Positions 8,588-44,005 of a stretch of DNA of 64,000 nt are shown one piece after another. Every line of letters begins with the position of its first letter. Position 1 is the first letter of the stretch. The stretch lies in IMG/VR virus record IMGVR_UViG_3300050014_000073, positions 1 to 64,000 of that record, one strand, 5' to 3'. Position numbers and translations under genes: made by a program. The stretch is from a virus. Below the pieces are notes generated by a model. It was not told the DNA's origin, made no database searches, and saw only the letters and a list, made by a program, of their open reading frames with translations.

Positions 8588-8687
8588 GTTTCAATCCACG
8601 CCGCTCGCGCGGGCAGCGACGACATTTTAGTTACGCTCCTAATGCCACCACCTGATTTCAATCCACGCCGCTCGCGTGGGCGGCGAC
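8588..8687 (-). CRISPR. type I-C-like CRISPR mini-array (2 repeats, 1 spacer)
   Basis: 33-nt repeats 8655-8687 and 8588-8620 (GTCGCYGCCCRCGCGAGCGGCGTGGATTGAAAY) around a 34-nt spacer 8621-8654; no cas genes in window. Confidence 0.92.
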
Positions 8688-26282: not shown

Positions 26283-26288
26283 GATTGA

Positions 26289-28157: not shown

Positions 28158-28167
28158 GATTTAAATT

Positions 28168-29162: not shown

Positions 29163-29737
29163 AACCACCTCACGTTCCGGTTATCAACATCCGTGGAGTA
29201 AACGGAAGTGGGAAGAGTTATCTAGTCCGTTCTTGGATGAAACTGCTTGGAGCGAAACCATATCCGCAGCGGTCAAATTTGTTTGGAGGAGAGACTGCAA
29301 CTGGAGCGGAGTACTATTTGCTTTCAGACGATGGAAGGGTGATCGGGGACTACCGTACCAATTGCGGAGGCTGTGACCGCATCCACTCCCAAGATGAAGT
29401 TGCGGACCATATTCGGTTAGGGATTTCCTCTGGTTCACGTTACGTTCTGTTCGAAGGTGTGATTCTCTCAACAGTGTTTGAGTATTGGCATCAGTTCAGC
29501 CAGTCCATCAACGGGATGCTCTGGGTCTATCTTGACACCCCACTGGAAGTTTGTTTGAAGAGGGTTTCCGAGCGAAACAAGAACAAGGCATTCAAAGAGA
29601 ATCTCGTTCGGGACAAGTTCCGGCAGGTTGCTTCCACGCGCCGTCGAGCAGAAGCCGCTGGAGAGAAAGTGTTTGAGATTCATTGGGAGAACGCAGAGAA
29701 AGAGCTAGAAAACCTCATAGCAGGATTAAACATATGA
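29138..29737 (+). CDS. P-loop kinase (5-hmdU DNA kinase type)
   Basis: NIRGVNGSGKS, GGCD, FEG, LDTPLEVCLKRV. Confidence 0.85.
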   Translation: MQEEYSLLKPPHVPVINIRGVNGSGKSYLVRSWMKLLGAKPYPQRSNLFGGETATGAEYYLLSDDGRVIGDYRTNCGGCDRIHSQDEVADHIRLGISSGSRYVLFEGVILSTVFEYWHQFSQSINGMLWVYLDTPLEVCLKRVSERNKNKAFKENLVRDKFRQVASTRRRAEAAGEKVFEIHWENAEKELENLIAGLNI

Positions 29738-29859
29738 AACTTCCTAAAGTTCGTATGCTCCGGCAGATTCTATATTGGATGGAGGAGCGACAGAGACGAA
29801 TGCGCCTGGCAAACGCCGCCGTATGGGTGTTACGGAAACAGAAGAGGAGACTTATATGA
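29734..29859 (+). pseudogene. 41-aa truncated paralog of the downstream aGPT-Pplase1 gene
   Basis: MKLPKVRMLRQILYWMEERQR vs MKLPPVRNLKKFLWFMEERQR. Confidence 0.7.
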
Positions 29860-30773
29860 AGTTGCCTCCGGTAAGGAACTTGAAGAAGTTTTTGTGGTTT
29901 ATGGAGGAGCGCCAAAGGGTTTATTTAAGGCGACAGGCAGGTGAACCTTATCCTTGGACTTCGGATCCCATCTTACGCCGCTTTCGATTTTGCAATGTTT
30001 ATCGAGAGCAGGATCGGGTGACGACTTTTTGGCGAGAACGTTGGGCAAAGAAATACGCTGATCACTCGAACTTATGGTTTGCTGCTTGCTTGTTTCGGCA
30101 CATCAACTGGCCCAATACGCTCGAAGAAATTGGATTCCCCAAAGAGTGGAATCCTCGTAAGGTCCTTCGCATTCTCGAGAAGCGGAAAGCACGGGGAGAT
30201 AAAGTCTACACAAGTGCTTATCTTCTCGGAGGCGGAAACACCAAGCATGAAACCAAAGTCCGCTACACGGTGATGACAGTATTGAATCCTGTGTGGAAGT
30301 GGGTTGAGAAGGCTCTTCCTGGAACGGGTCGTATTGCTCCTTGGTTAACTGACGGAACTGATGACGTTCCCTGTACGTTACGCGAAATGTTCGATTGGCT
30401 CTGCCAGTTCCACGGCTTCGGGAAGTTTCTCTCCTACGAAATCGTCACCGATCTTCGTCATACTCGTTATCTATGCAACGCTCCTGACATAATGACTTGG
30501 GCGAATCTCGGTCCGGGAGCGCAGCGCGGATTGAACCGTCTTTACGAACGGGAGCTGAATCAGTCACATCCCCAGGCTCAGCTTCTCGAAGAGCTTCTGG
30601 CAATTCAAGAGTGGGTGGTTAAGAACCGTGATTCGAGAGTTCTTCCTACGATAGAGCCACGAGATCTCGAACATAGTTTTTGCGAGTGCGACAAACTTCT
30701 TAGAGCCAAGGAGCGCCTTGTGCAAGGACGTATAATCGGTCTAGAAAGATTCAGACATCCAGGCTTGATTTGA
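29856..30773 (+). CDS. aGPT-Pplase1 family DNA hypermodification protein
   Basis: ERQRVY..PWTSDPIL..FCNVYREQDRVT, FRHINW, GKFLSYEIVTD, GPGAQRGL, EHSFCECDK. Confidence 0.88.
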   Translation: MKLPPVRNLKKFLWFMEERQRVYLRRQAGEPYPWTSDPILRRFRFCNVYREQDRVTTFWRERWAKKYADHSNLWFAACLFRHINWPNTLEEIGFPKEWNPRKVLRILEKRKARGDKVYTSAYLLGGGNTKHETKVRYTVMTVLNPVWKWVEKALPGTGRIAPWLTDGTDDVPCTLREMFDWLCQFHGFGKFLSYEIVTDLRHTRYLCNAPDIMTWANLGPGAQRGLNRLYERELNQSHPQAQLLEELLAIQEWVVKNRDSRVLPTIEPRDLEHSFCECDKLLRAKERLVQGRIIGLERFRHPGLI

Positions 30774-30791
30774 CGAAGGAGAAATCATAAC

Positions 30792-31274
30792 ATGATAAAC
30801 GCAAGTGAGTTTTACGGACCGCGCCGTCTCAAGGCGCGAAACAACAATACGCTGCTCAAGGGCAACATGATCCCGCGACGGTTCAAGTCCATCGTCATTC
30901 GTGTGACGGGAGTTCGTTCAGCTCCTTCTGACTGGGACTGCCGGCTTATTCTGGACTTCGATTTCCATCCCGAAGCTCTCGAAGCTCTTCGAGGATCGGA
31001 AGCAGCTAGTGCTCATTCCTGGGCTGTAAACAAGACTAATGGCCAGCGGCTTCGTTCGTACTTATCAGCTTCTGACGACTTCGAGGAACTGGTCGACTGC
31101 CGTGTCCGTCTCAAGGTCATTCCGCAACGTGACCCGAAGTCGGGCGAGCGTGTTCGTTCGCTGGAAGTGACTTCTCTAGCACGCGAAGGGTCAACTCATT
31201 GGGAAGTGCTGGCCTCCTCCGGTAGAGATTGCGGAAGAAGACGAAACGTATTTTTCGTATCCTCCTGTTTTTGA
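30792..31274 (+). CDS. hypothetical protein (3' end may be frameshifted)
   Basis: AAGGAG RBS. Confidence 0.6.
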   Translation: MINASEFYGPRRLKARNNNTLLKGNMIPRRFKSIVIRVTGVRSAPSDWDCRLILDFDFHPEALEALRGSEAASAHSWAVNKTNGQRLRSYLSASDDFEELVDCRVRLKVIPQRDPKSGERVRSLEVTSLAREGSTHWEVLASSGRDCGRRRNVFFVSSCF

Positions 31275-31296
31275 GGAGGAGAAAACGGAACTGTTT

Positions 31297-32190
31297 TTGA
31301 AGATCTTCATCCCCACTAAAGGACGTCCGGTTCGGATCAGTACTCACAAGTACTTCCCTTCCGCTTACGTTGTTGTACACAACGAGCAGGAAGCGGAGCA
31401 GTATCGCGCGAATGCAACGATCGATCCTAAACGGATTCTCATTAGTGGAGCGAAGACCGATGCGTTCGGCCTAACTCGACAACGTGAATGGGTGTGCCAG
31501 ACGCAAGCAAAGAAGAATGAGTGGATTCTGTTCGCTGACGATAACATCTATTACTTGCTAGCGATGGATAAGGAACACTATGGTTTTCCAGAAGTTCTAC
31601 TGACGGCAGACCATACCAGATTGTCGGAAGAAGAGAAAGCGACGGCTCGCAAGGAAGGTGCGATCTGGCGTCCTCGTTTCAACACGCGAGTCCCGGTAGA
31701 ACGGTTCTTGAGGGAGATCGTTCCGGATACAGTTTCTCATTGTGAGATTATCGGAGCACACCTTGCAGGGTTTTCTCTTACAGATAACATCTTATTTCGG
31801 CGAAAGAAGTTTGTTGACGTCGGATACGTCATAGGCAAGTTGATGCTCTGGCACAACACTGGGCATGTCCCCTTCGACCATACAGTCACGATGGAAGACT
31901 TCTATCACACAGCCGAGAACCTGAAGCGATACGGAGTTTGCGTAGTAAACAACTTCGTTGCGGTCCGCCCGACGAATTGTCACTATCTTCCAGGCGGAAT
32001 GGGAACGTATGACGAGCGAGTTCCGTATCGCAAGCGGGACGTGGAAACTTTGTTAGCACGGTATCCTGGGATGTTGGCAGTGAAGGACAGAGAGGGATTT
32101 GTTCCAGGAACTGACTTGCGTCTTCTCTTGCATTCACGTGAGGATGTTCAACGATGGCAACGAGCGCAGAAGCGCACAAGATTGTTTTAG
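31297..32190 (+). CDS. GT-A fold glycosyltransferase (phage DNA-modification type)
   Basis: IFIPTKGR, LFADDNI, MEDF, PGGMG. Confidence 0.8.
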   Translation: MKIFIPTKGRPVRISTHKYFPSAYVVVHNEQEAEQYRANATIDPKRILISGAKTDAFGLTRQREWVCQTQAKKNEWILFADDNIYYLLAMDKEHYGFPEVLLTADHTRLSEEEKATARKEGAIWRPRFNTRVPVERFLREIVPDTVSHCEIIGAHLAGFSLTDNILFRRKKFVDVGYVIGKLMLWHNTGHVPFDHTVTMEDFYHTAENLKRYGVCVVNNFVAVRPTNCHYLPGGMGTYDERVPYRKRDVETLLARYPGMLAVKDREGFVPGTDLRLLLHSREDVQRWQRAQKRTRLF

Positions 32191-32196
32191 GAGGAT

Positions 32197-33222
32197 TTGA
32201 TGCGAACTGTGGATCTTAGTCGTGGTGAGCAGGTTCGTCTGTTCAACGGTTTGGCAATCGAGATTGCAAGCAAGTGCAATCGAACTTGCTACTTCTGCCC
32301 GAACGGATACAACCAGCGTGAAGATGTCTTCATGCTGGAGGAAACGGTCTCACGTTTGCTGGAAGAGCTCTCACGCTTGAAGTACTCTGGGCGTATCGAG
32401 TGGTACATCTACAACGAACCGACACGTGACGAACGGCTGAAGATGTTCATTCGTTGGGCGCGAGTTCAGGTTCCGCGCGCTTGCCAGATGATCAACACGA
32501 ACGGTGACTATTTCAAGGATAAGTTTGACATCGCTGCATTGTTCTTTGCTGGTCTCAATCAGATGCAGATCAACATCTACAGCGCGCAGGATAACGCAGA
32601 GAATGATAAGACGTTTGAGAACGGCGTTGCGCAAGCGCGAAAGCGTGAAGCGCAGCTACAATCGTGGGTTGATAAGATCTCCCCAACAATGAATATCCAT
32701 TCGGATGCGAGTCTCTACTTGAACTCAGGCCCGCGAAAGCGTATTTGCAAAGTCGTGGCGAAGTATGGCGTCCGTCCCAGTTTCAAGGATAGTGATCTCG
32801 AGGGGCCAAATCACTTCTCGAACCGCAGTGGAAACATTCCTGGTTTCCGCAATGGGCTTACAGAACCACTGAAGAAGATGTGTGTGCGCCCGTTCAGGTT
32901 TCTCAATATAGATTACCAGGGCGATGCCCTTCTTTGTTGTAACGACTACCATGGAGTTGTTAAGATCGGGAACGTGAAGGACCATACGCTGGTGGAATTG
33001 TGGAACTCTTCGGTTCTCAATCGTTATCGTGTCAAGTTGCAAGGTCATGATCGTAATTCAGCACTGTGCGACAAATGCGACTACAACGGGGGACACTATC
33101 AACATCAGGTGGGACACGTTACGACGGGGTCAGCGGAACAGGATGTGGAGTGGGTACAGGAGCCGTTTTATCCGGGCGGACTGGTTCAGATCGCGCCGAA
33201 GACGGATAAGAGGTTGATTTAG
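32197..33222 (+). CDS. radical SAM enzyme with SPASM/twitch domain
   Basis: CNRTCYFC, NEP, NTNG, CVRPF..LCCND..CDKC. Confidence 0.92.
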   Translation: MMRTVDLSRGEQVRLFNGLAIEIASKCNRTCYFCPNGYNQREDVFMLEETVSRLLEELSRLKYSGRIEWYIYNEPTRDERLKMFIRWARVQVPRACQMINTNGDYFKDKFDIAALFFAGLNQMQINIYSAQDNAENDKTFENGVAQARKREAQLQSWVDKISPTMNIHSDASLYLNSGPRKRICKVVAKYGVRPSFKDSDLEGPNHFSNRSGNIPGFRNGLTEPLKKMCVRPFRFLNIDYQGDALLCCNDYHGVVKIGNVKDHTLVELWNSSVLNRYRVKLQGHDRNSALCDKCDYNGGHYQHQVGHVTTGSAEQDVEWVQEPFYPGGLVQIAPKTDKRLI

Positions 33223-33228
33223 AGCTAT

Positions 33229-33313
33229 TACGGATTGCTAGGTCGTTTCCGTGGCATCCGGTTTGTGGAAAGTACCGTATAACTAGTCTAGCGACGGTCC
33301 TAGGGTCGCTAAA
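33229..33313 (+). repeat. dispersed two-box element, copy 3
   Basis: TACGGATTGCTAGG-48 nt-GCGACGGTCCTAGGGTCGCTAAA. Confidence 0.75.
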
Positions 33314-33360
33314 CACAAACGTCTTCGACTTCTTTCTGGAAATCGGAAAGGAAAGAAACA

Positions 33361-34374
33361 ATGCAAGTAATACGAGTAAGAAACATCAACCAAGCGTGGG
33401 ATCATGCAAAGATCCTTCTCAATGCCAATCACACAACTCGTCCCAGTCGGGTCGGGGAGGTGATTGAATACCCCGACCCAGTCACGACGGTCTACGAGAA
33501 GCCGTGTGAGCGTGTCCTCTTCAATGAGAAGCGGAATGCTAATTGCTTTTTCAATTTCATGGAAGCAATGCATATGCTTGCGGGCCGAAATGATGTCGCG
33601 TGGCTGGAACGATTCAATTCCAAGATTCGCGATTTCATCGGTAACGTGGAAGTGCAGCATGGTGCATACGGCTACCGCTGGCGAAAGTTCTTCGACATGG
33701 ACGGGGGCGCAGAGGATGACTATGCGGACCAGATTCTCAAGATCATTCGGATGCTGAAGAAGAACCCCGATGAACGCCGCGCTGTTCTTACCATGTGGAG
33801 TCCGTTGGCGGACTTGGAACGACCAGATCTTGCAGACGTGCCGTGCAATTTGATCTGCACGTTCAAGATTCGAGGCGGTGCTCTCGACATGATTGTCTTC
33901 TGTCGTTCAAATGACATTGTGTTTGGCGCGTATTCTGCAAATCAAGTGCACTTCAGCTTTCTGCTGGAGTACATGGCTTCTATGATCGGAGTACCGGTTG
34001 GGCGTTACTTTCAGATCTCGGACTCTTGGCACGCTTACACTTCTCGTTGGTCCGAATTTGGCGGTCTTGATCCCACTCCGACGATTGATCGCTATGCGTT
34101 GGGCATGGTTCCGTTCCCGCTGGTTGATCATCCTGAGACGTGGGACGAAGATCTGAAGCGGTGGATGGAACGAGACTTCACGCAAGAGTTCTCCAATCGG
34201 TTCTTCTCACGAGTTGCTGAGCCGATGTGGCTCTCATGGTCAGAATACAAGCATAACAATCTCGACAACGCAATTAGGGTTATACGGAATTGTGATGCAG
34301 CTGACTGGCGCTGGGCGGGAACAGAGTGGTTGCTCAACATCCAGAGGAAGCGAGCAGAGAAGGGGAAGAAATGA
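33361..34374 (+). CDS. thymidylate synthase-fold enzyme, likely dUMP hydroxymethylase
   Basis: AYGYRW, RRAVL, PCN, RSND..GAYSAN (Asn indicates dUMP specificity), HAY. Confidence 0.88.
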   Translation: MQVIRVRNINQAWDHAKILLNANHTTRPSRVGEVIEYPDPVTTVYEKPCERVLFNEKRNANCFFNFMEAMHMLAGRNDVAWLERFNSKIRDFIGNVEVQHGAYGYRWRKFFDMDGGAEDDYADQILKIIRMLKKNPDERRAVLTMWSPLADLERPDLADVPCNLICTFKIRGGALDMIVFCRSNDIVFGAYSANQVHFSFLLEYMASMIGVPVGRYFQISDSWHAYTSRWSEFGGLDPTPTIDRYALGMVPFPLVDHPETWDEDLKRWMERDFTQEFSNRFFSRVAEPMWLSWSEYKHNNLDNAIRVIRNCDAADWRWAGTEWLLNIQRKRAEKGKK

Positions 34375-34562
34375 GACAGGAAGATCCAAAGTCGACTTTA
34401 ATTGAACGATTTCGGGTATGGCGTCTCTTCTGGGTTGCTTGCCGTGTCCCGAGACGGAACGATCTCTATATCAACAAGAACGGCTTGCTTCAACGTTGTA
34501 AGACGACGAACTACTCGCGTCGCGCTCAAAAGCGTACAATTGTGAAAGAGGGATGGAAGTGA
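34371..34562 (+). CDS. small hypothetical protein
   Basis: ATGA overlap with the TS-fold gene. Confidence 0.45.
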   Translation: MRQEDPKSTLIERFRVWRLFWVACRVPRRNDLYINKNGLLQRCKTTNYSRRAQKRTIVKEGWK

Positions 34563-35149
34563 AGAATCTTTTTGAAAATCTGATGTGGTTCCGAAGATTT
34601 GGTTCAACGAGACGCTTCCATTCTGAGACGTTCATCGGAACACCAGAGACAGTTCTACACCACTCTGCTAGTACAGCTCTTATCCTGATTCAGGTCTTAG
34701 GAGAAAACGTCTCCGTCAACTTGCTCAAGGCTGCTCTGTGCCACGATCTCGAAGAGGGACTTACAGGCGACGTCCCCGCGCCGGTCAAGTGGGCTATTGG
34801 AAATACGTTCGAAGAGTTGGAGCGTCGGATTCGTGTGTTCCACGATATTCCGTTCCCAGGATTGAACGGCGAGGAACAGCATCAGCTCAAGGCTGCGGAT
34901 TTTCTGGACTGCGCGATGACGTGTCTCATGCAGCGAAAGATGGGGAACTCTCTAATTGATACGGTTTTCGAGAACTTAGTCGAGTATGAAAACCGAAGTC
35001 CGATCTTGGGCTACGTTGAGACAATTCTGTTCCTCTATCTCTGGCGAGAAGTCAAAGCGGAATACAGACAGACGGTTAGCGGAAGCCGATATGGAAGCGT
35101 CGGTCACCCCTTCTGGAGTCAAGATGCCAAAAGTGAGAAGCAAAGCTGA
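34553..35149 (+). CDS. HD-domain deoxynucleotide phosphohydrolase (YfbR/DatZ-like)
   Basis: RRFH, HHS, CHDLEE..TGDVPAPVK, AAD. Confidence 0.88.
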   Translation: MEVKNLFENLMWFRRFGSTRRFHSETFIGTPETVLHHSASTALILIQVLGENVSVNLLKAALCHDLEEGLTGDVPAPVKWAIGNTFEELERRIRVFHDIPFPGLNGEEQHQLKAADFLDCAMTCLMQRKMGNSLIDTVFENLVEYENRSPILGYVETILFLYLWREVKAEYRQTVSGSRYGSVGHPFWSQDAKSEKQS

Positions 35150-35741
35150 GTTCTTCCGGCTGTCACAGGAAATGGTCTTCGGGAATCGTCTTCAGCAATT
35201 CGGGTGGAAACTCTTCGATGAAATGTTTCAAGACTGCCGGAACGCAAGATGTATTGGTCGCGAACCTTGGTACGATAGCGAACTTCCTCCTATGCCTGAA
35301 AAGGTCAGTGTTAGGAACGTACTTGCAGGTGGCGATGAACGGGTTCAACGGTATCGTCTCGGACCAGCTTTCGCTCATGCTCATTGTGTCTCGTTGATCA
35401 AGACCCACATCGTCACTCCTGAACAGCTCATACTTGATGAGAGTGCTCCAGATCATCTAGTCACGTTGCAAGCAGAAGTCCGGAATAGCGAAAGGTTTAT
35501 TGACATGCGATTCGCGCTGCATTCTGGAGTAGGGATGCGACCTGCTTATGCCGCAATGAAGCCCGTGAGTGGGATTCGGGCCGTGACAATCCTGAAAGAG
35601 TACCTGGACGCACCGTCTTGGGACAACCTCTGTGAAATTCTTCATGTATATAGCGAAAGTGTCGTAGAGCTGAGTTCGTACTCAGTTCCAGTAGGAGTTC
35701 TGGGTCTCTCGACAATTATTTGGGAAGTGAGGAATTATTGA
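35124..35741 (+). CDS. hypothetical protein
   Basis: GGAG RBS before ATG 35124. Confidence 0.65.
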   Translation: MPKVRSKAEFFRLSQEMVFGNRLQQFGWKLFDEMFQDCRNARCIGREPWYDSELPPMPEKVSVRNVLAGGDERVQRYRLGPAFAHAHCVSLIKTHIVTPEQLILDESAPDHLVTLQAEVRNSERFIDMRFALHSGVGMRPAYAAMKPVSGIRAVTILKEYLDAPSWDNLCEILHVYSESVVELSSYSVPVGVLGLSTIIWEVRNY

Positions 35742-35742
35742 T

Positions 35743-35978
35743 ATGAGAGTTCTTGTTGTTGTTGGTGGCCAGCCTGGATCTGAAGCTAAAGGAAAGGCAT
35801 GCGTATTTGTCTGGATTACCTAGACGCAAAGGACAGAAACGTTCGTAGGAGCGTCGATTTGGGTAAGAGATCTCACAAGTTCCTTCACGAGTTGGAGACC
35901 CGTACGGAACTGAGAGTAGGTCTTGCATTCACAGGTCCGCATCAAGACGATCTCGTTTATTGGGATTCTGTTTTGTGA
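35743..35978 (+). pseudogene. internally deleted adenylosuccinate-synthetase-family gene (PurZ-like)
   Basis: N-terminus MRVLVVVGGQPGSEAKGK; out-of-frame C-terminus ICLDYLD..FLHELETRTELRVGLAFTGP. Confidence 0.75.
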
Positions 35979-36009
35979 TGTCAATCTCCTTTTGCCAAAA
36001 ACCATTCGC

Positions 36010-36038
36010 TTTACTTTTCTATCGCGTTAGGGTAAAGT
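36010..36038 (+). promoter_or_regulatory. sigma70-like promoter
   Basis: TTTACT-17-TAAAGT; same CGCTTTACT context as 26680. Confidence 0.4.
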
Positions 36039-36145
36039 AGTAAGTTAAAGTACTCTTTGGGGTCCTATCTCGTTGATAGGATTAGCTTGCGGCGCGAGTA
36101 GAGACGTTTTCAACGGCTCGTTTGCCAGACAGGTGACCATACTCC

Positions 36146-36523
36146 GTGTCTCCTCGTAAATCACACAAGCTTCTTAAGGGCCCAGCTCTGTCCGAGATCC
36201 TTCGGGTCACAGTTCACCAAGTCAAGTGGTTCGTCGCGGGCCAGCCTACTCTTTTGATTCCTCCTTCAACGGCGCTTGCTCTTGTGAGAGAGGGCGAGTA
36301 TGAAGGTAAGGCAAGTGCCCAGCGAGTCTACTACATACGTGAAATTGACAATTGTCCAAAGCCTGTATGCAATCCTTCGTATTGGGACGACCGTGCTGTC
36401 TACCCTGGTGAAACAGATTCGCCTTCACGACATACTGTAGACCTCTGGGACCAAATTCTCAAGCGCCGTTCCAGTCGCGTAGCTGTTCAAGTTGTCGCCG
36501 CCCACGCGAGCGGCGTGGATTGA
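36146..36523 (+). CDS. hypothetical protein whose stop codon lies inside a CRISPR repeat
   Basis: 125-aa ORF. Confidence 0.55.
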   Translation: MSPRKSHKLLKGPALSEILRVTVHQVKWFVAGQPTLLIPPSTALALVREGEYEGKASAQRVYYIREIDNCPKPVCNPSYWDDRAVYPGETDSPSRHTVDLWDQILKRRSSRVAVQVVAAHASGVD

Positions 36524-36526
36524 AAT
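36494..36526 (+). CRISPR. solitary type I-C-like repeat
   Basis: GTCGCCGCCCACGCGAGCGGCGTGGATTGAAAT, identical to reverse complement of 8655-8687. Confidence 0.88.
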
Positions 36527-36540
36527 CAGGTATTTGAAGA

Positions 36541-36873
36541 ATGGCTTCTCCTTCTTCCGGTTTCCTCGCAGCGTCGCTTTCATCTGCAGCTCCCGCTATT
36601 AGTTCCCGCCTTCGTTCCTCTGTTCGTTCCGCTCTTAACTCGCATCAGTCATTGAAAGCCGTCCGCGGTCGCGGATCAGAAGTTCAGTCACATCGTTCAG
36701 CTCTTGTCTACTTGCGCGAGCTTGAAGCTGAACTTTGTTTGGTCCAGAACTTGTTGTTGGACGCTTGGAAAGAGTGCGACTACTCGCGGGATTTCCGGAA
36801 GTTTATTCGTCATACTGACCAGGCTCAGCAGCGACTTCATCAAGCGATCAAGAAGCTTGCCAGGACCGTATAA
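36541..36873 (+). CDS. hypothetical protein
   Basis: Ends ACC GTA TAA. Confidence 0.6.
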   Translation: MASPSSGFLAASLSSAAPAISSRLRSSVRSALNSHQSLKAVRGRGSEVQSHRSALVYLRELEAELCLVQNLLLDAWKECDYSRDFRKFIRHTDQAQQRLHQAIKKLARTV

Positions 36874-36874
36874 T
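36866..36874 (+). promoter_or_regulatory. CCGTATAAT promoter-like motif (representative copy)
   Basis: Exact copies also at 5648, 13511, 18073, 26288, 26642 (minus); variants at 27802, 30728, 33275 (plus). Confidence 0.7.
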
Positions 36875-36880
36875 CAGGTT

Positions 36881-37054
36881 ATGAGAAATTGGAAAGACGA
36901 TCCAAAGGCAGTTGAGGCAGTTGAGTATCTTCTGGGCATCGGAATGAATGCGGACGAGTTCCTTCAAGCAGATATAGAAGAGAGCAGTGATTTGGAATCT
37001 GATGATGCCGATCCGGAAGTAGAAAGCCGTATTCATGAGGTTGTTGAGGAATAG
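36881..37054 (+). CDS. small acidic protein, probably leaderless
   Basis: ATG 6 nt after TATAAT; very D/E rich. Confidence 0.6.
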   Translation: MRNWKDDPKAVEAVEYLLGIGMNADEFLQADIEESSDLESDDADPEVESRIHEVVEE

Positions 37055-37055
37055 T

Positions 37056-37319
37056 ATGCCTATCCGTCAATGCAAGAACGGCCACCTGACAGGCTTTCGA
37101 AACTGTTCACTATGCGGCAGCAAGCAGACTCGTGATGTAGCGTGGAAGGCAGTTGCATCTCCTGATGTTGAGGAAGTTGCATCTCCTGCTGCAGAAGTGA
37201 AGCCTCTTCACGTTTCGTTCCTCAATCAGTTCCGGGTTTGGAGAGAGAAGCATCGGAAGGCTGTTCAGCTTCGATTGCGTACTGCACGTTGGGGATTCAA
37301 GGTGCACGAGAGGATATGA
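37056..37319 (+). CDS. zinc-ribbon hypothetical protein
   Basis: CKNGH..CSLC. Confidence 0.5.
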   Translation: MPIRQCKNGHLTGFRNCSLCGSKQTRDVAWKAVASPDVEEVASPAAEVKPLHVSFLNQFRVWREKHRKAVQLRLRTARWGFKVHERI

Positions 37320-37530
37320 GCAGTGAAAGGCAGAGACAAGAGGCGAAGAGCCCAGTCGCGAAGGCGGACAGCTTTGGAGCACCGCTATACGACGAGCAAT
37401 ACGACTACTGGCTCCTCAAGTCTTACAGCAATCCCCGAAATGGTCTCTGGATCAGAATTGAGCTGGTCCGAGCAATTCGAGACACAGGCCAATCCAGAAA
37501 GTCCGATCTTTTTGGAGGGGGTGGAATGAA

Positions 37531-37794
37531 ATGAGCACTCACGTTGTTATCATCGACCGTGACAGCTTCACTCCTCGGCATCTGGAAGCACCGAATCAGT
37601 TCATCATTGAAGTCAACTCCCAAGGCTTCAACGCATACCAGACTACGAGCAAAGGCGAGCGTGAACTGATAGCAACTAGTGCCTCCGTTCTCACGTTTGC
37701 TGCAGTCATGGCGAGGATTATCCATGACGCAGGCTTTGCTGAGCAAGTTCACTTCCTGGCCGTGAAGCTGGACCCGATGGAGGTCAAGCCGTGA
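37531..37794 (+). CDS. hypothetical protein
   Basis: RBS and operon packing. Confidence 0.55.
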   Translation: MSTHVVIIDRDSFTPRHLEAPNQFIIEVNSQGFNAYQTTSKGERELIATSASVLTFAAVMARIIHDAGFAEQVHFLAVKLDPMEVKP

Positions 37795-38066
37795 TCACGA
37801 TTTGGAAATACCCTCTTCGTGTTCAATGTGAACAGAACATTGATATGCCTGAAGGTGCTCAGGTCCTCTGCGTACAGAATCAAGGTCCTGTTCATACACC
37901 TCTTCCTTTCCTTTGGGCGAAGGTTAACACTGAGAAGAAACTCGTTCCGAAAAAGATCTTGATTCGGGGAACAGGACACCCATTGGAAGGGGACGCGCAT
38001 TATATAGGAACGTTCCAGATAGATGGAGGAGATCTTGTCTTCCACGTCTTCGAGAGGTTTCTATGA
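37791..38066 (+). CDS. conserved phage hypothetical protein
   Basis: TIWKYPL..MPEGAQVL..GTGH..YIGTFQ..VFHVFE pattern. Confidence 0.75.
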   Translation: MITIWKYPLRVQCEQNIDMPEGAQVLCVQNQGPVHTPLPFLWAKVNTEKKLVPKKILIRGTGHPLEGDAHYIGTFQIDGGDLVFHVFERFL

Positions 38067-38377
38067 TCATTCGTGCTCTCGATCTTCAAGGAGTTCCAGT
38101 CCCGATGAAGGCTATGCGTCTTCATGGTATCTTTTCTTTAGAGGCACGATCTCATGAACATCTATACGTTGGTCCAATCGAGATCGAATCTGACGAAGAG
38201 TATGAACGGGAAGAAAGACAAGCATACGTTCCAATGGGGGTTTGCATCATGAACTGCCAGCCTCGAAAGAACTATAAGGAAGTTCCTCCCTGCGAGAAGT
38301 CAATCTCGTTGAAGGAGTACCTCCTGTGGTTCGGCTTCGTCGTACTCCTGGCAATCCTCAGTCGGTGGTGGAGTTAA
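38063..38377 (+). CDS. hypothetical protein with C-terminal TM
   Basis: ATGA coupling. Confidence 0.55.
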   Translation: MIIRALDLQGVPVPMKAMRLHGIFSLEARSHEHLYVGPIEIESDEEYEREERQAYVPMGVCIMNCQPRKNYKEVPPCEKSISLKEYLLWFGFVVLLAILSRWWS

Positions 38378-38594
38378 TGACTGCAATCCTCGAACGCCTG
38401 AACCGCTGGGTCCAAGCTCTTCCCAGCAATGATTCAATACCTGTAACGCATCGGGAAGCTGATATCCTGGCAGAAGGCCTCTCAAAGAACTCTTTCTACT
38501 TCAAGATGTCAAACGCGAGTTCTGATCCTCACGTCCTCCGCAACTCCCTCCAGAAGGGAACATTCCGGTTCTGTAATCATAAGGTGTTCGTGCT

Positions 38595-38861
38595 ATGATG
38601 ACCCCTCACAATTCAAAAGCAATCCAAGAGATGATCGCAGTCGGCGTCATTCCCCAAAACTGCCAGAAGTTTGAGATGCTATCCGACGCCGAAGGAGCTG
38701 TTCTGTTCAAGTACGAAGTCTTTGCTACCGAGGAACAGGTTCAGCAGATTGCCGATGCTCTTAAACGGAATCCAGAAGAAGCTCAGCGGATTACCAGAAC
38801 AGTGTTGTTCGGGGTAAATGACAAGGACAGTTCCCCTACAGCTAAAGTAGAACTTCCATAA
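38595..38861 (+). CDS. hypothetical protein flanked by 21-bp direct repeats
   Basis: CATAAGGTGTTCGTGCTRTGA at 38578 and 38857. Confidence 0.6.
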   Translation: MMTPHNSKAIQEMIAVGVIPQNCQKFEMLSDAEGAVLFKYEVFATEEQVQQIADALKRNPEEAQRITRTVLFGVNDKDSSPTAKVELP

Positions 38862-38890
38862 GGTGTTCGTGCTGTGATTGATATCGTTCA

Positions 38891-38923
38891 GTCGCTGCCC
38901 GCGCGAGCAGCGTGGATTGAAAC
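38891..38923 (+). CRISPR. solitary type I-C-like repeat
   Basis: GTCGCTGCCCGCGCGAGCAGCGTGGATTGAAAC; one mismatch to reverse complement of 8588-8620. Confidence 0.88.
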
Positions 38924-38949
38924 AACCCTTACCTCCTATTAAAATTCCA

Positions 38950-39306
38950 ATGGCACAAGGAAGTCAGTATCACGTCAACGCCCGGGATAAAGACCGGGTC
39001 CAGTGTATGGCAGAGGGCGGAGTTCCAGAGACTCGGATTGCAGAAATCCTCGACATGGCTCCGAAGACCCTACGCAAGTATTACGGAAAGCTCATCAAGG
39101 ATTGTTTGGACGAAACCGTAGGCAAGATTGGTCACTCGATTGTCCAGAGAGCCTTAGATCTGAACTGCCGTGACGGGGCTTCCTGTGCAATGTTCTATCT
39201 CAAGACCCGAGGCAACAAGTACGGATGGTCCGAGAAGATTGGGTTTGATGACGCAGCTGCTAGCTTGATTAAGCGGGTCATTGGCGTGAAAGACGACGAA
39301 ATCTGA
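38950..39306 (+). CDS. terminase small subunit
   Basis: HTH IAEILDMAPKTLRKYY, AMFYLKTRG..GW; upstream of TerL. Confidence 0.8.
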   Translation: MAQGSQYHVNARDKDRVQCMAEGGVPETRIAEILDMAPKTLRKYYGKLIKDCLDETVGKIGHSIVQRALDLNCRDGASCAMFYLKTRGNKYGWSEKIGFDDAAASLIKRVIGVKDDEI

Positions 39307-39323
39307 TCCAGGTTGGAAACCCT

Positions 39324-39716
39324 TTGCGTGAACATCGTGTTACTCACCCAACGTTCGGAGTTGTTACCTGGTTCGAAATCAAAGCTGGAACTGCTTCTCT
39401 TACCAAGTCTCTCAAAAAGCGGATTTGTAGCTGGTGCCTTAAGGAAGTTCATGGGTCTCGCCGGACACGTTGTGGAAGTAAGGAATGCGATGAGGCCTTG
39501 CACCGTGCGCAGCGTTATTCATATTGTCGAGGCATTCAGCTTCGTGAACACCGATTCTGCGAGTGTGGAGTACGCGGATCTGAAGTTGACCACGTTGTTC
39601 CAGTCAGTCTTGGTGGAACTGGTGACAAGAGCAACCTCCGTACTTTGTGTCGTGCCTGCCATAAGGTTGCAACTGCTTTGCTTCGCGCAATGAAATCCAA
39701 GTACAAGGCTATATAA
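39324..39716 (+). CDS. HNH endonuclease
   Basis: EVDHVVPVSLGGTGDKSNLRTLCRACH. Confidence 0.88.
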   Translation: MREHRVTHPTFGVVTWFEIKAGTASLTKSLKKRICSWCLKEVHGSRRTRCGSKECDEALHRAQRYSYCRGIQLREHRFCECGVRGSEVDHVVPVSLGGTGDKSNLRTLCRACHKVATALLRAMKSKYKAI

Positions 39717-39720
39717 AGCA

Positions 39721-41259
39721 GTGGCTGCTCTCGCTCAACCTCCGATCAAGAAGCAAAAGTGGATACCGAGGAAGGAATTTCTCAAGCAGATCCACGACCC
39801 TGCTTTTCAAGCACCTAAGGTTCAGTACATCGACTACGAACCGAGGGGCAACGTCAAGGAGATGTTCCGTCATAAGGAACGTGAGATTATCCTTGCAGGT
39901 CCGGCTGGAACAGGTAAGAGCCGAGGGGCTCTTGAGAAGCTTCATTGGATTTGTGAGAAGTATCCTCGCGCTCGCTGCCTCATGCTGCGCAAGACTCGTC
40001 GCAGTTTGACGCAGTCGGGTATTATTACGTATGAGCAGCGTGTTCTTCCCGCTCCCAACTACGTTCCGTTCCACGGTGGCGAACAAGCCTACATCTATCC
40101 GAACGGGAGCATCCTAGCAGTAGGAGGCCTTGACGATCCGAACAAGCTGTTCTCTTCGGATTGGGATGTCATCTTCGTCCAACAGACTGAGGAGTTGAAC
40201 TTAGGGGAATGGGAGAGCTTGCTCCGGTCTCTTCGTTCATGGAAGGTTCCATATCAGCAGGTCATTGGTGACTGTAACCCTGGGCCTCCTACCCATTGGA
40301 TTCTGTCCCGCAAGTCAGCGGGGTCCTGTACCTTTTTAGAGACGCGTCATGAAGACAATCCGGAACTGTGGAACGGCTACTGCCCGATGCACGGGAAGAT
40401 CGAACCGGAGTGGACCTGTCGAGGACGCGAATACATCTCGGTGCTTGACGCCTATACAGGAGTCCGGTTCCTTCGTCTCCGCAAAGGGATCTGGGCAGCT
40501 GCTGAAGGGATTGTCTATGAAGACGTCTGGGATGTAGCGGTTCACGTCATTGATCGCTTTGTCACAACTCCTTTAGATAAGGACCAGGTTCCTAAGAGCT
40601 GGCCACGCTATTGGGGCGTTGACTTTGGCTATACGAACCCCTTCGTCTGGAGCGCCTTTGCGGAAGACCCTGACGGACGTCTGTTCCGGTACAAAGAGAT
40701 CTACCGGACGAAGACTCTTGTTGAGGACCATGCCAAGCGGATTCTAGAAGTGACGCAGGACGAACCTAAGCCTCAGTGGATTGTCTGCGATACGGATGCT
40801 GAAGACCGCGCTACTTTAGAGAAGCATCTTGGGATGAAGACAGTCGGAGCTTGGAAGTCCGTCAGTCCTGGAATCCAGGCGGTCTCAACGCGCCTCAAGA
40901 TTGCCGGCGACGGGAAGCCTCGGTTGTTCTATCTTAAGAACTCTGTCGTGGACGTTGATCCTTTGCTCCTGGCGGAACATAAGCCAACTTGCACTGAAGA
41001 AGAGTACCCAGTATATGTTTGGGACACATCGAACAACCGGAAGCGCGGTGAAGAGCCTGTAAAGGAATTTGACCACGGGCAAGACTTGAGCCGGTACGTC
41101 ATAACTAAAAAAGATGACACTTCCGGCAAGAAGCCGAAGTTCTTTGCGATTGGTTCCGTGACGAAGACGGGTGGTTCAGGAGAAGGTGGCAGCTTGGCTC
41201 GTCCTTCGCCTTGGAGAATGGGTGGAGGAATCGGATTGGGAACGCGGTGGGGACAGTGA
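39721..41259 (+). CDS. terL: terminase large subunit
   Basis: GPAGTGKS, DCNP, GVDFGYTNP, DHGQD..RY. Confidence 0.93.
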   Translation: MAALAQPPIKKQKWIPRKEFLKQIHDPAFQAPKVQYIDYEPRGNVKEMFRHKEREIILAGPAGTGKSRGALEKLHWICEKYPRARCLMLRKTRRSLTQSGIITYEQRVLPAPNYVPFHGGEQAYIYPNGSILAVGGLDDPNKLFSSDWDVIFVQQTEELNLGEWESLLRSLRSWKVPYQQVIGDCNPGPPTHWILSRKSAGSCTFLETRHEDNPELWNGYCPMHGKIEPEWTCRGREYISVLDAYTGVRFLRLRKGIWAAAEGIVYEDVWDVAVHVIDRFVTTPLDKDQVPKSWPRYWGVDFGYTNPFVWSAFAEDPDGRLFRYKEIYRTKTLVEDHAKRILEVTQDEPKPQWIVCDTDAEDRATLEKHLGMKTVGAWKSVSPGIQAVSTRLKIAGDGKPRLFYLKNSVVDVDPLLLAEHKPTCTEEEYPVYVWDTSNNRKRGEEPVKEFDHGQDLSRYVITKKDDTSGKKPKFFAIGSVTKTGGSGEGGSLARPSPWRMGGGIGLGTRWGQ

Positions 41260-41366
41260 ACGAGCAGAACCGCTTCCATAAGCATCATCGCGCCGTTCGG
41301 TTCTGTCTTCGTGTTATGGTTATCAGTCATCATCATTTCTGGGAAGAAAACAAAAGGAGAAAGCAT

Positions 41367-41684
41367 ATGAACAACTACAACGATGGACAGAATCTTTTGA
41401 TCCAAGTGGTCAATGTCGTCGATGTTTTCGGGCAACCGGCAGTATTGACTGTGGTCCCGTTCTGGAGTACTTCAGATGCAACGGTCTTCAATCCAGTTGC
41501 TGCTGCTGACGGTTTGTCAGCAACGGGAGTTGCCTTGAAGACCGGAACAGTGACTATCACTGCAACGACAACCGATCAGGGATCAGCGTCGGTTACGCTT
41601 CCTGTTGGAGCGGGCCAAGCGGTCAGTTTCCAGCTCCAGGTTAGTATAGTACCAGTGGCAACTACTCTCAATCCGATTGCCTAG
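41367..41684 (+). CDS. Ig-like domain protein
   Basis: WSTSDATV..DGLSA..GTVTITAT. Confidence 0.65.
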   Translation: MNNYNDGQNLLIQVVNVVDVFGQPAVLTVVPFWSTSDATVFNPVAAADGLSATGVALKTGTVTITATTTDQGSASVTLPVGAGQAVSFQLQVSIVPVATTLNPIA

Positions 41685-41686
41685 AC

Positions 41687-41783
41687 CCTAAACCTGATCG
41701 CTACGGGTCGCTAGGACAGTCTGTAGACTCTGGATAGGTACTTTTCTACGCCATAGTCAACGCTAGCCTTAAACGGTCTCTAA
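41687..41783 (+). repeat. dispersed two-box element, copy 4
   Basis: CCTAAACCTGATCGCTACGGGTCGCTAGGACA identical to copy 1; TAGGTACTTTTC shared; degenerate second box. Confidence 0.75.
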
Positions 41784-41784
41784 T

Positions 41785-42111
41785 ATGGGGACTTCATCCA
41801 CTAACAAAGGACCTGTCGCGGACGCCAAAGTCCCAATCGTTCCGGGCGTCTATCCTGTAAAGGATCTGATGCAGCGGATCGAGGAGACTAAAGAATCCAA
41901 GACTCCTTCCCCACCAATGTCAATGAAGTCCTCTCCACTTGCTGTGAAGTCTGCTTGGTACGAGATGGACTATCTTGTCAAGTATCGCGATCCGCTGCTG
42001 GCAGTTGGATTCGGATTGGTAGTTGTGGGAATCTTTCGTATCTATGTTCCAGCGGGGTTTGTGGTTCTGGGGCTAGGACTGACGGCAGCAAGTTTGTTCC
42101 TGTCGAAGTAG
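41785..42111 (+). CDS. membrane protein (2 C-terminal TM)
   Basis: Hydrophobic C-terminus. Confidence 0.65.
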   Translation: MGTSSTNKGPVADAKVPIVPGVYPVKDLMQRIEETKESKTPSPPMSMKSSPLAVKSAWYEMDYLVKYRDPLLAVGFGLVVVGIFRIYVPAGFVVLGLGLTAASLFLSK

Positions 42112-42118
42112 AGGAGAA

Positions 42119-42472
42119 ATGAAAATGAAACTTCGTTCAATCTTGTTGGTTCTGTTCCTGAGCATTGCAAGCGCCCAGGGACTTCTTGCTCCTGTCAGTA
42201 TCCCGGACATCTCGGGGACGGGATCAGCCGTTGCAATCGCAGCGTCAGGAACAGTAGTCCGCTTCTGTCAGCTCGTTGCTCCTTCGACGAACACGAACAA
42301 CGTTCGTTGGGGAGACTCAGCGATTACGACGTCACGAGGATCAATCATTGCTCCTGGAGGAGGACAGTTCATTCCTCCTGGCGGAGTTGGTTCTCCTTAC
42401 ACGATTGACCTTGGTCATTGGTACGTTCTGGTTCAGTCAGGCGACTATCTGACAGAGACTTGCGCGAAGTAA
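42119..42472 (+). CDS. secreted beta-rich protein
   Basis: Signal peptide ending ASA. Confidence 0.7.
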   Translation: MKMKLRSILLVLFLSIASAQGLLAPVSIPDISGTGSAVAIAASGTVVRFCQLVAPSTNTNNVRWGDSAITTSRGSIIAPGGGQFIPPGGVGSPYTIDLGHWYVLVQSGDYLTETCAK

Positions 42473-42485
42473 GGAGAGTACTACA

Positions 42486-44003: not shown

Positions 44004-44005
44004 CC

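What the first reader, a model, noticed from the sequence alone, without database searches (positions are those of the whole stretch)
36494..36531. Solitary I-C repeat sharing the first 5 spacer bases with the mini-array
38 bp are identical to the reverse complement of 8650-8687: the repeat plus CAGGT, the PAM-proximal start of the spacer. It overlaps the stop codon of one gene and ends 14 nt before the next ATG. Solitary repeats are known to act as RNA anti-CRISPRs (Racr), including against type I-C. Alternatively, host Cas5d cleavage would process the phage mRNA at this junction.
Basis: partly seen in the sequence, partly recalled or inferred. Interest (0 to 1): 0.75.

Follow-up and report, generated by a model that had tools for sequence, protein, structure and literature searches.

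The report
Lone CRISPR repeat in peat phage
An uncultured peat phage carries single copies of its likely host's type I-C CRISPR repeat inside its own gene operons, a known kind of viral decoy against CRISPR immunity, here with an unusual shared change that weakens the repeat's hairpin.

Summary
Window 36494-36531 is the exact reverse complement of 8650-8687, 38 of 38. A DNA contig from another run bridges it, so it is not a misassembly.

It is one of four type I-C repeat copies in an 83-kb Cas-less virus record. The others are a two-repeat mini-array (8588-8687, minus) and a second solitary repeat (38891-38923), which is outside this finding's coordinates. All four are sense to the local genes.

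SR1 equals the mini-array's first repeat plus 5 nt of its spacer. It therefore looks like a copied or truncated mini-array unit.

The closest cellular repeats lie beside complete I-C cas operons in Acidobacteriota MAGs. All four phage copies have A at repeat position 16, giving a C·A mismatch in the upper stem. Only 1 of 609 host-locus repeats has this, and 0 of 15 repeats in other viral loci.

Best reading (about 0.5): a Racr-type decoy RNA transcribed inside an operon, as for the published RacrIC1. Function is untested. The host is not pinned, no spacer target was found and no acr gene was recognised.

This is a new member of a known kind. This scan has noted solitary I-C repeats in other phages before.

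The parts
36494..36526 (+). SR1: solitary type I-C-type CRISPR repeat (33 nt), identical to the mini-array's first repeat; holds the TGA stop (36521-36523) of ORF 36146-36523
   Evidence: (I1); bridged by a DNA contig in X11 and by an RNA-library contig in X15
36527..36531 (+). CAGGT: 5 nt identical to the first 5 nt (PAM-proximal end) of the mini-array spacer; read as a vestige of a copied or truncated spacer
   Evidence: no similarity beyond it in the aligned flanks
38891..38923 (+). SR2: second solitary I-C-type repeat, 32/33 identical to the mini-array's second repeat; intergenic between ORF 38595-38861 and the terS-like ORF (ATG 38950)
   Evidence: (I2, D12); bridged by DNA contigs in X11 (with a 7-nt deletion placed at 38923) and in X12 (no difference)
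8655..8687 (-). Mini-array repeat A (first in the direction of transcription), 33/33 identical to SR1
8621..8654 (-). Mini-array spacer, 34 nt, starts with CAGGT; no target found
   Evidence: (no other match in 83 kb at up to 10 substitutions)
8588..8620 (-). Mini-array repeat B, 30/33 identical to repeat A (positions 6, 11, 33 differ)
36146..36523 (+). Orphan ORF (125 aa, GTG start); its last 10 codons and stop lie in SR1; no acr assignment
   Evidence: codon score 0.116 against -0.34 and -0.69 in the shifted frames; 1 hit, its own 99% variant
36541..38861 (+). Block of about nine small co-oriented ORFs bracketed by SR1 and SR2; one matches DUF7352 / phrog_3848, the rest match nothing; two segments are replaced in a variant strain
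   Evidence: X11 contig joints 36896->37286 and 37773->38020
38950..41259 (+). terS-like ORF (my reading of the sequence; only a weak hit to a PHROG of unknown function, E 8.4e-4), HNH endonuclease and terminase large subunit, directly downstream of SR2

Best explanation
SR1 is a real solitary type I-C CRISPR repeat unit in a Cas-less, uncultured tailed phage from peat. It is a copy of the first repeat of the phage's own mini-array, carried over with the first 5 nt of that array's spacer, so it most likely arose by duplication and truncation, or short-patch conversion, of a mini-array unit (inferred). It has no promoter-like site of its own above chance. It lies sense-oriented at a gene junction, so it would be transcribed as part of a polycistronic phage mRNA (inferred, with weak support from one RNA-library contig). 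The stem base, the UGG after the cut site and the 11-nt 3' tail that published Cas5c enzymes depend on are unchanged. The host's Cas5c should therefore recognise it. Together with SR2 and the mini-array repeats, the RNA would then tie up Cas5c, and Cas7 on the RNA downstream of the handle, in non-productive complexes. That makes it an RNA anti-CRISPR of the Racr kind, as shown experimentally for RacrIC1 (function here is inferred by analogy). The G-to-A change at repeat position 16, shared by all four copies, weakens the upper stem. Whether it tunes binding or cleavage or is neutral is unknown.
For: Identity and copy number: (4 true copies; the next-best site has 9 mismatches; shuffles give 0-1 sites at up to 12 mismatches).
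Type I-C assignment: repeats differing by 1 nt from SR2 form a 35-37-copy array beside cas1, cas4, cas7, csd1/cas8c, cas5d and cas3 in an Acidobacteriaceae MAG. BLAST of window 30000-49999 against 5 MAGs hits only their arrays, with G001 repeats about 97% identical to SR2 and G002 repeats about 94% to SR1.
Cas-less phage: no Cas5d or Cas7 family match in the 83 kb.
Orientation: 4 of 4 copies are sense to the flanking genes.
Pairing at positions 6-19 is kept in three forms: C-G in SR1 and repeat A, U.G in repeat B, U-A in SR2.
Cas5c determinants: cut at the 3' stem base, UGG after the cut and the 3' overhang critical, loop and 5' overhang not (PMC8524198, passages). All are intact here.
Precedent: RacrIC1 is co-transcribed 11 nt behind acrIC5 and inhibits I-C (PMC10651486).
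Ecology: the stretch is held in 14 peat DNA runs at half or more of its words, and partly in 6 RNA runs. Repeat-spacer-repeat joints on SR1 and SR2 in RNA run X15 show arrays with similar repeats (laid at 85% or more) in the same samples.
SR1 and SR2 are retained in a variant strain that has replaced two segments between them.
Against: There is no direct evidence of transcription, Cas5c binding, cleavage or inhibition.
The host is not identified: 624 spacers from 61 fetched array loci and five candidate MAGs searched with about 63 kb of the window gave no spacer match to the phage.
No acr or aca gene was recognised next to SR1. 6 of the 7 small ORFs scanned around and just downstream of it (35799-38598) match nothing, and one matches only DUF7352. 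The upstream ORF is an orphan with a poor Atlas model, pLDDT 0.33.
The A16 change lowers the canonical hairpin from -16.6/-18.1 kcal/mol (host repeats) to -8.9 to -11.1 (6-bp stem), and alternative folds become the minimum-energy structures. This could equally mean decay.
No close relatives of the phage exist in IMG/VR (terminase at most 51% identity, 3 loci, none with the repeat), so conservation cannot be tested.
The variant strain differs by only 4 letters in 1,097, so retention of SR1 there says little.
The 6-19 covariation may simply mirror two host repeat types, since both C-G and U-A forms are common in host arrays.
Confidence: 0.5

Rival explanations
1. Neutral relic. SR1 (and SR2) are leftovers of recombination or truncation events involving the mini-array or a host array. 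They are tolerated because they sit at gene junctions, and they have no present function.
For: The 5-nt spacer vestige looks like a truncation scar. All copies carry a stem-weakening change seen in 1 of 609 host-locus repeats. No promoter-like site above chance (6 found against 6.5 expected). No recognisable acr neighbour. No conservation data.
Against: Outside position 16, all four copies keep every base of the stem base and the 3' tail. SR1 and repeat A are 38/38 identical, while repeats A and B differ at 3 positions. 4 of 4 copies are sense-oriented. Positions 6-19 stay paired through a G.U intermediate. Both solitary repeats persist in a strain that has turned over neighbouring DNA.
Confidence: 0.25
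2. mRNA processing or regulation site. The phage uses host Cas5c to cut its polycistronic mRNA 25 nt before the ATG at 36541 and 37 nt before terS, or lets Cas5c/Cas7 sit on these 5' regions. Expression of the downstream genes would then be coupled to the presence of the host's I-C system.
For: Both solitary repeats lie just upstream of start codons, 14 and 26 nt away. Cas5c cuts at the 3' stem base and stays on the 11-nt handle of the downstream product (PMC8524198).
Against: An essential packaging operon that depends on a non-universal host defence system would be risky. One RNA-library contig runs uncut across SR1, 36339-36861, though contigs cannot exclude processing. No precedent was found in the papers read.
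Confidence: 0.12
3. Guide-making unit. SR1 plus its downstream sequence yields a crRNA-like RNA that either attacks sibling phages lacking the insert or represses a host gene or cas promoter (Cracr/crlRNA-like).
For: Viral crlRNAs that repress cas genes, type I-C included, are described in the preprint 10.1101/2024.10.29.618823 (abstract and section 7). Earlier notes of this scan propose one-repeat guides in other phages. SR1 shares the first seed segment, CAGGT, with the mini-array spacer.
Against: SR1 has a single repeat and no second repeat to define a 3' end. The trinucleotides just upstream of SR1 and SR2 are GTT and TCA, not TTC (the TTC PAM is taken from the abstract listing of PMC8406640). 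No SR1-less allele appears in the 4 runs laid. The 34 nt after SR1 or SR2 have no TTC-flanked match better than 10 of 12 seed positions in the 68 host-side loci scanned (L008-L075), which is chance level. The variant strain deletes 7 nt right at the start of SR2's would-be guide.
Confidence: 0.06
4. Assembly artefact. A host CRISPR repeat was spliced into the viral contig.
For: Repeats shared with abundant host arrays break assemblies. Many contigs end at 36494/36525 and 38890/38924, and X11 depth spikes to 733 in bin 36405-36525.
Against: Contigs from other runs cross both sites with phage sequence on both sides: X11 across SR1; X11 and X12 across SR2; an X15 RNA-library contig across SR1. 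The stretch is held whole (98% or more of its sampled words) in 9 runs, although these may include the source sample.
Confidence: 0.02

Closest known systems
RacrIC1-acrIC5 operon of a Bifidobacterium pseudocatenulatum prophage (Camara-Wilpert et al. 2023, PMC10651486)
   Same: A single type I-C repeat in a Cas-less viral genome, placed directly behind a small ORF and transcribed with it rather than from its own promoter. It is presumed to act through the host Cas5c/Cascade proteins.
   Different: Here the upstream ORF is an orphan with no detectable relation to any Acr, and the repeat overlaps its stop codon instead of lying 11 nt behind it. The genome holds a second solitary repeat and a mini-array. 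All copies carry a C.A mismatch in the upper stem. Nothing has been tested experimentally.
Viral solitary repeat units (SRUs; Faure et al. 2019, as described in PMC10651486 and PMC11656645; 2,103 viral SRUs found with SRUFinder)
   Same: It matches a known CRISPR repeat, sits in a virus with no adjacent cas genes and no neighbouring partial repeat.
   Different: [quoted passage not shown] SR1 is inside an operon, and 30 of its 33 nt are covered by a predicted ORF end. I could not check whether this IMG/VR record is already in that paper's SRU list, because supplements are closed.
Virus-borne CRISPR mini-arrays (SPV1/SPV2, Medvedeva et al. 2019, as described in PMC11656645)
   Same: The same phage has a repeat-spacer-repeat unit without cas genes, and SR1 is a copy of its first repeat plus 5 nt of its spacer.
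   Different: Mini-array repeats are described as identical to host repeats, with spacers mostly targeting related viruses. Here the repeats differ from every sampled host repeat at position 16, and no target was found. SR1 itself has no spacer.
Viral crRNA-like regulators (Cracr; preprint 10.1101/2024.10.29.618823)
   Same: Phage-borne degenerate repeat units that load host Cas proteins; type I-C examples are reported.
   Different: [quoted passage not shown] SR1 shares only 5 nt with the mini-array spacer, and no target was found in the host loci examined.

Membership tests
Type I-C CRISPR repeat | Repeat of 32-33 nt with a 2-nt 5' overhang and an 11-nt 3' tail of the UGGAUUGAAA(C/U) type after the stem | tested here: met
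   The same ends are present in 609 repeats of 61 fetched array loci. The repeat layout is described in PMC8524198.
Type I-C CRISPR repeat | A 7-8 bp stem closing a short loop | tested here: inconclusive
   Six base pairs are kept, then a C9.A16 mismatch. The canonical 6-bp fold is -8.9 to -11.1 kcal/mol against -16.6/-18.1 for host repeats, and it is not the minimum-energy fold of the isolated repeat.
Type I-C CRISPR repeat | Near-identical repeats form arrays next to cas3-cas5c-cas8c-cas7-cas4-cas1 | tested here: met
   G001 (Acidobacteriaceae MAG): an array whose repeats differ from SR2 by 1 nt lies beside Cas1, Cas4, Cas7, Csd1, Cas5d and Cas3 matches.
Viral solitary repeat unit (SRU) | Lies in a virus or MGE without associated cas genes | tested here: met
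   An IMG/VR virus record with terminase, clamp loader and other phage genes. No Cas5d or Cas7 match in the 83 kb. Other cas families were not searched, and the record is about 80% complete.
Viral solitary repeat unit (SRU) | Not adjacent to other full or partial repeats | tested here: met
   The nearest copy is SR2, 2,397 nt away. Between SR1 and SR2 no site has 12 or fewer mismatches; the only such site nearby is a 12-mismatch one at 36082, about 410 nt upstream, which is at the level shuffles reach (0-1 sites).
Viral solitary repeat unit (SRU) | Intergenic position | tested here: inconclusive
   SR1 overlaps the last 10 codons and the stop of a predicted orphan ORF that has a positive codon score. 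SR2 is fully intergenic.
Racr (functional RNA anti-CRISPR) | Transcribed | tested here: inconclusive
   One contig of RNA library X15 covers 36339-36861. DNA carry-over is not excluded, and contigs show no strand or ends.
Racr (functional RNA anti-CRISPR) | Bound or processed by the cognate Cas ribonuclease, forming aberrant complexes | not testable with these tools
   There is only indirect evidence: the published Cas5c determinants are intact.
Racr (functional RNA anti-CRISPR) | Inhibits interference by the cognate CRISPR-Cas type | not testable with these tools
   This needs a phage or plasmid interference assay.
Racr (functional RNA anti-CRISPR) | The host carries the matching subtype | tested here: inconclusive
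   The host is unknown. The closest repeats are in peat/soil Acidobacteriota I-C arrays, and arrays with similar repeats (laid at 85% or more) occur in the same samples. No spacer links any genome to the phage.
Cracr / crlRNA | A pseudo-spacer with at least 9 PAM-proximal matches to a host cas or toxin promoter target, flanked by repeat-like elements | tested here: not met
   SR1 has one repeat. The 34 nt after it have no TTC-flanked match above chance in the host-side loci scanned.

The most novel reading that the evidence does not exclude
The position-16 G-to-A change shared by all four copies may be adaptive rather than decay. It would make the repeats Cas5c-binding but poorly cleaved traps that spare the phage's own polycistronic mRNAs. 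Alternatively, SR1 and SR2 may act as a pair: Cas5c cuts at both would release a 2.4-kb RNA with a crRNA 5' handle and a 3' hairpin, on which Cas7 would polymerise, soaking up the Cascade backbone protein on a scale a short Racr cannot reach. Either would be a new mode of RNA anti-CRISPR for Cas6-less type I-C systems, in which the processing enzyme stays on the downstream product.
Probability: 0.1. Interest if true: 0.7.

Novelty: new member of a known kind. Interest (0 to 1): 0.4.

Why it matters
Solitary repeats are an established but thinly tested class of RNA anti-CRISPR, and only one type I-C example has been assayed. This phage offers three things. First, it holds a natural series in one genome: a mini-array plus two solitary repeats in two sequence variants, each closest to a different Acidobacteriota repeat type. 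Second, the 5-nt spacer vestige is direct sequence evidence that a solitary repeat can derive from a mini-array unit. Third, it carries a phage-only stem mutation whose effect on Cas5c binding versus cleavage is directly testable. It also points to type I-C immunity as a live pressure on phages of peat Acidobacteriota, which are abundant, hard-to-culture hosts.

Tried and rejected
Relatives. The repeat pattern with A16 gave 0 hits in viral contigs and 0 in genome contigs. It gave 1 hit in metagenome contigs, a degenerate repeat near the end of a 50-repeat host-type array. Terminase relatives number only 3 loci at 45-51% identity, none with the repeat. The clamp-loader search found none. Comparative conservation of SR1 therefore could not be tested.

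Other IMG/VR stretches with the looser pattern: 6 stretches from 5 contigs (3 with a single copy, one mini-array, two from one contig that carries a full array). Raw ORF lists in these GC-rich loci did not settle orientation or context, so I draw nothing from them.

Spacer target. There is no second match in the 83 kb at up to 10 substitutions, no exact match in IMG/VR and no blastn match in INPHARED phages. One 10-nt seed match with a TCC flank lies inside cas3 of MAG G001. By my estimate it is at chance level, and it is absent from the other two cas loci, so I rejected it as evidence for a Cracr role.

Host spacers against the phage. None of 624 spacers from the fetched loci matched; all alignments were 18 nt or shorter. 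BLAST of window 1-8580, 8700-28699 and 30000-64000 against five MAGs found nothing outside the repeats. The two best non-repeat hits in G004 are not in arrays. Window 28700-29999 and record 64001-83140 were not searched.

In-context RNA folding. The canonical hairpin probability varies with flank length for the phage copies. The control on genuine host arrays also gave low values: means of 0.00-0.20 for three arrays and 0.89 for a fourth. I reject this measure as uninformative and use only the isolated-repeat energies.

Promoter and terminator scans were at chance level. The TTGAAA/TAAAAT site overlapping the end of SR2 is therefore not used.

Rfam gave no family at gathering score for the window, and none at E up to 1 for 35500-39500. 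There are no tRNAs.

Upstream ORF as an Acr. There were no Pfam, PHROG, PDB-sequence or Atlas leads. The downstream ORF gave none either.

Parts of the laid stretch without cover in X12, X15 and X16, and RNA contig ends inside SR2 (X15 record 21 ends at 38920), are not used. Repeats shared with host arrays break assemblies.

They may show whether this record is already listed among the SRUs of PMC10651486 or the Cracr candidates of the preprint.

Full report
**What is there**

The window is the first 64 kb of an 83,140-nt IMG/VR virus record, classed linear and about 80% complete, with GC 51.5%.
- Genes run on the minus strand up to about 27.2 kb. They include a clamp loader, an SbcCD-like fusion and a RecA/UvsX-like gene with an intein.
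- From about 27.8 kb they run on the plus strand. They include a thymidylate-synthase-like gene, small ORFs, an HNH endonuclease and the terminase large subunit.

The reported identity is exact: 36494-36531 is the reverse complement of 8650-8687, 38 of 38. The repeat pattern occurs four times in the window and in the whole record. It occurs 0 times in 100 shuffles and 0 times for the backwards control. A scan allowing up to 12 mismatches of 33 finds nothing else better than 9 mismatches; shuffles give 0-1 such sites.

The four copies are:
- mini-array repeat A (8687->8655)
- mini-array repeat B (8620->8588); the 34-nt spacer lies between A and B, all on the minus strand
- SR1 (36494-36526, plus)
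- SR2 (38891-38923, plus)

All four are sense to the neighbouring genes.

Identities between copies:

| Pair | Identity | Positions that differ |
|---|---|---|
| SR1 vs repeat A | 33/33, plus the next 5 nt (CAGGT, the spacer's first 5 nt) | none |
| SR2 vs repeat B | 32/33 | 19 |
| Repeat A vs repeat B | 30/33 | 6, 11, 33 |
| SR1 vs SR2 | 29/33 | 6, 11, 19, 33 |

The flanks share nothing more.

**Not an artefact**

I laid four runs on 35800-39400 at 85% likeness; all four are kept as contigs.
- DNA run X11: one 2,138-nt contig covers 35800-36896 with four other letters, none in SR1. This strain has replaced 36896-37286 with 45 other letters and 37773-38020 with 35 other letters.
- SR2 is crossed by an X11 contig, with 7 nt left out at 38923, and by an X12 contig with no difference.
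- RNA library X15: one contig covers 36339-36861, across SR1. This is a weak hint of read-through transcription, because DNA carry-over cannot be excluded and contigs carry no strand.
- Many contigs end at the repeat borders. X15 holds repeat-spacer-repeat joints on both SR1 and SR2. So arrays with similar repeats (laid at 85% or more) are present in the same samples.

The stretch is held in 14 peat-metagenome DNA runs at half or more of its words (9 of them may be the source sample). It is held partly in 6 peat or permafrost RNA runs.

**It is a type I-C repeat**

A looser pattern with the loop left free found 60 stretches in species-representative genomes.
- The closest repeats differ from SR2 by one base. 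They belong to Acidobacteriota MAGs (Acidobacteriaceae, Terriglobia, Bryobacterales) and one Hydrogenedentota MAG.
- In the Acidobacteriaceae MAG G001 the array lies beside genes matching Cas1, Cas4, Cas7, Csd1/Cas8c, Cas5d and Cas3.
- BLAST of window 30000-49999 against five such MAGs hits only their arrays. G001 repeats are closest to SR2 (97%) and G002 (Bryobacterales) repeats are closest to SR1 (94%).
- The phage itself has no Cas5d or Cas7 match.

**A phage-only change**

| Set of repeats | Positions 9 and 16 |
|---|---|
| 609 repeat instances in the 61 fetched host-type loci | C-G 575, U-A 27, U.G 6, C.A 1 |
| 15 repeats in six other viral stretches | C-G 15 |
| The four phage copies | C.A 4 |

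- The single host C.A case is the degenerate repeat that the exact-pattern metagenome scan was bound to find.
- The A16 pattern has no exact match in 185,579 representative genomes, nor elsewhere in IMG/VR.
- In isolation the host repeats fold into the 8-bp stem at -16.6 and -18.1 kcal/mol. The phage copies reach only -8.9 to -11.1 for the remaining 6-bp stem, and other folds become the minimum-energy structures.
- Folding in context is uninformative, because genuine arrays also score low.
- Positions 6 and 19 stay paired in three ways: C-G, U.G and U-A. This fits selection on the stem, but it could also mirror two host repeat types, since both forms are common in host arrays.

**Context of SR1**

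- The TGA inside the repeat (36521-36523) ends a 125-codon ORF. That ORF has a positive codon score (0.116, against -0.34 and -0.69 in the other frames). It has no relative except its own 99% variant (1 protein among 19 candidates). It gave no Pfam, PHROG, PDB or Atlas lead.
- The next ATG is 14 nt after the repeat.
- SR1 and SR2 bracket about 2.4 kb of small co-oriented ORFs. One matches DUF7352 and the rest match nothing. The terS-like ORF, HNH endonuclease and terminase follow SR2. The terS reading is mine, from the sequence; the only family hit is a weak one to a PHROG of unknown function.
- No promoter-like or terminator-like site stands out above chance, and no Rfam family matches.

**What it most likely does**

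From the passages I read:
[quoted passage not shown] For the Bacillus halodurans enzyme, recognition rests on the UGG just after the cut, the stem base and the 3' overhang, not on the loop or the 5' overhang. Cas5c remains on the handle at the tail of Cascade.
- PMC10651486: viral solitary repeats act as RNA anti-CRISPRs. RacrIC1 lies 11 nt behind an acrIC5 homologue on one transcript and inhibits type I-C on its own. 2,103 viral solitary repeat units were catalogued.

In SR1 every base of the stem base, the UGG and the tail is intact. Its position behind a small ORF mirrors RacrIC1. I therefore commit to a Racr-type decoy transcribed within the operon, at about 0.5. Of the steps in this chain, only sequence identity, copy number, orientation, type assignment and presence in independent contigs are shown. 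Transcription is weakly hinted. Binding, cleavage and inhibition are inferred.

**Rivals**

- Neutral relic of a truncated mini-array copy (0.25). The spacer vestige and the weakened stem fit it. The perfectly kept functional bases, the 4-of-4 sense orientation and the kept 6-19 pairing argue against it.
- mRNA processing or regulation by host Cas5c (0.12). This shares the first step with the decoy reading and cannot be separated from it here.
- Guide-making unit (0.06).
  - The bases before SR1 and SR2 are GTT and TCA, not the TTC PAM (abstract listing of PMC8406640).
  - No SR1-less allele was seen in the four runs.
  - No seed match above chance was found in the host-side loci scanned.
  - The variant strain deletes 7 nt where SR2's guide would start.
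- Assembly artefact (0.02).

**What remains open**

- The host is not pinned. None of the 624 spacers from the fetched loci matches the phage, and the five MAGs contain no matching spacer.
- The mini-array spacer has no target in the record, in IMG/VR (exact match) or in INPHARED.
- There are no close phage relatives.

**Comparison and novelty**

This is a new member of the known class of viral solitary repeat units and Racr candidates. Its particular features are:
- it coexists with a mini-array whose two repeat variants it and SR2 copy pairwise
- the 5-nt spacer vestige points to an origin from a mini-array unit
- it lies inside an operon at a gene junction
- all copies share a phage-only upper-stem mismatch

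Earlier notes of this scan list the mini-array, SR2, a dispersed two-box element and a thymidine-hypermodification cluster in this genome. They also list solitary I-C repeats in other phages. I tested their one-repeat-guide idea here by the PAM criterion, and it was not met.

Noticed in passing
window 8474-8572 (-), 33290-33316 (+), 41687-41719 (+), 53221-53320 (+); partial copies at 709-743, 11766-11795, 18431-18453: A composite intergenic element recurs upstream of genes in the direction of transcription: two conserved boxes sharing a GGGTCGCTAGG-type core, the second forming a hairpin. The mini-array sits immediately upstream of one copy, and SR1 and SR2 lie between the copies at 33.3 kb and 41.7 kb. 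It may be a phage promoter or operon boundary (D3, D7, D14, D15, I3, I9).
   Followed up: partly
window 36494 region as laid in run X11 (tables 7 and 8): One X11 contig joins the mini-array's upstream flank to a repeat. The two X11 contigs that run on behind the repeat carry letters unlike the reference spacer. This may be a spacer polymorphism in the phage mini-array, or host-array contigs. It could not be resolved because read laying is capped at one call.
   Followed up: no
window 36896-37286 and 37773-38020: In the X11 strain these segments are replaced by 45 and 35 other letters. The small-ORF block between SR1 and SR2 is therefore variable between strains that otherwise differ by about 0.4%.
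   Followed up: partly
window 38923-38930: Seven nt right after (or including the last base of) SR2 are absent in the X11 strain. In X12 the site is as in the window.
   Followed up: no
L073 (G001:C16) about 13891 (+), inside cas3: The first 10 nt of the phage mini-array spacer match here exactly, with a TCC flank. By my estimate this is chance level, and it is not seen in the cas loci of G002 or G003.
   Followed up: partly
window 9971-11695 (-): A RecA/UvsX-like recombinase gene is interrupted by an intein with an HNH-type endonuclease region.
   Followed up: no
window 24768-25045 and 25793-26058: Two regions with 12/18-nt periodic direct repeats lie inside minus-strand ORFs (D1). The first shares 79% identity over 71 nt with a contig of MAG G005, probably a low-complexity coding repeat.
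   Followed up: no
L080 2683-2781 (-) (IMGVR_UViG_3300047539_000053): Another viral contig carries a two-repeat I-C mini-array. The 25 nt upstream of its first repeat equal the 3' part of its spacer, which suggests a third, diverged unit or a duplication.
   Followed up: no
window 38917-38945 (+): A promoter-like site (TTGAAA, 17 nt, TAAAAT; 10 of 12) has its first hexamer in the tail of SR2 and ends 5 nt before the terS-like ATG. The scan as a whole is at chance level.
   Followed up: no
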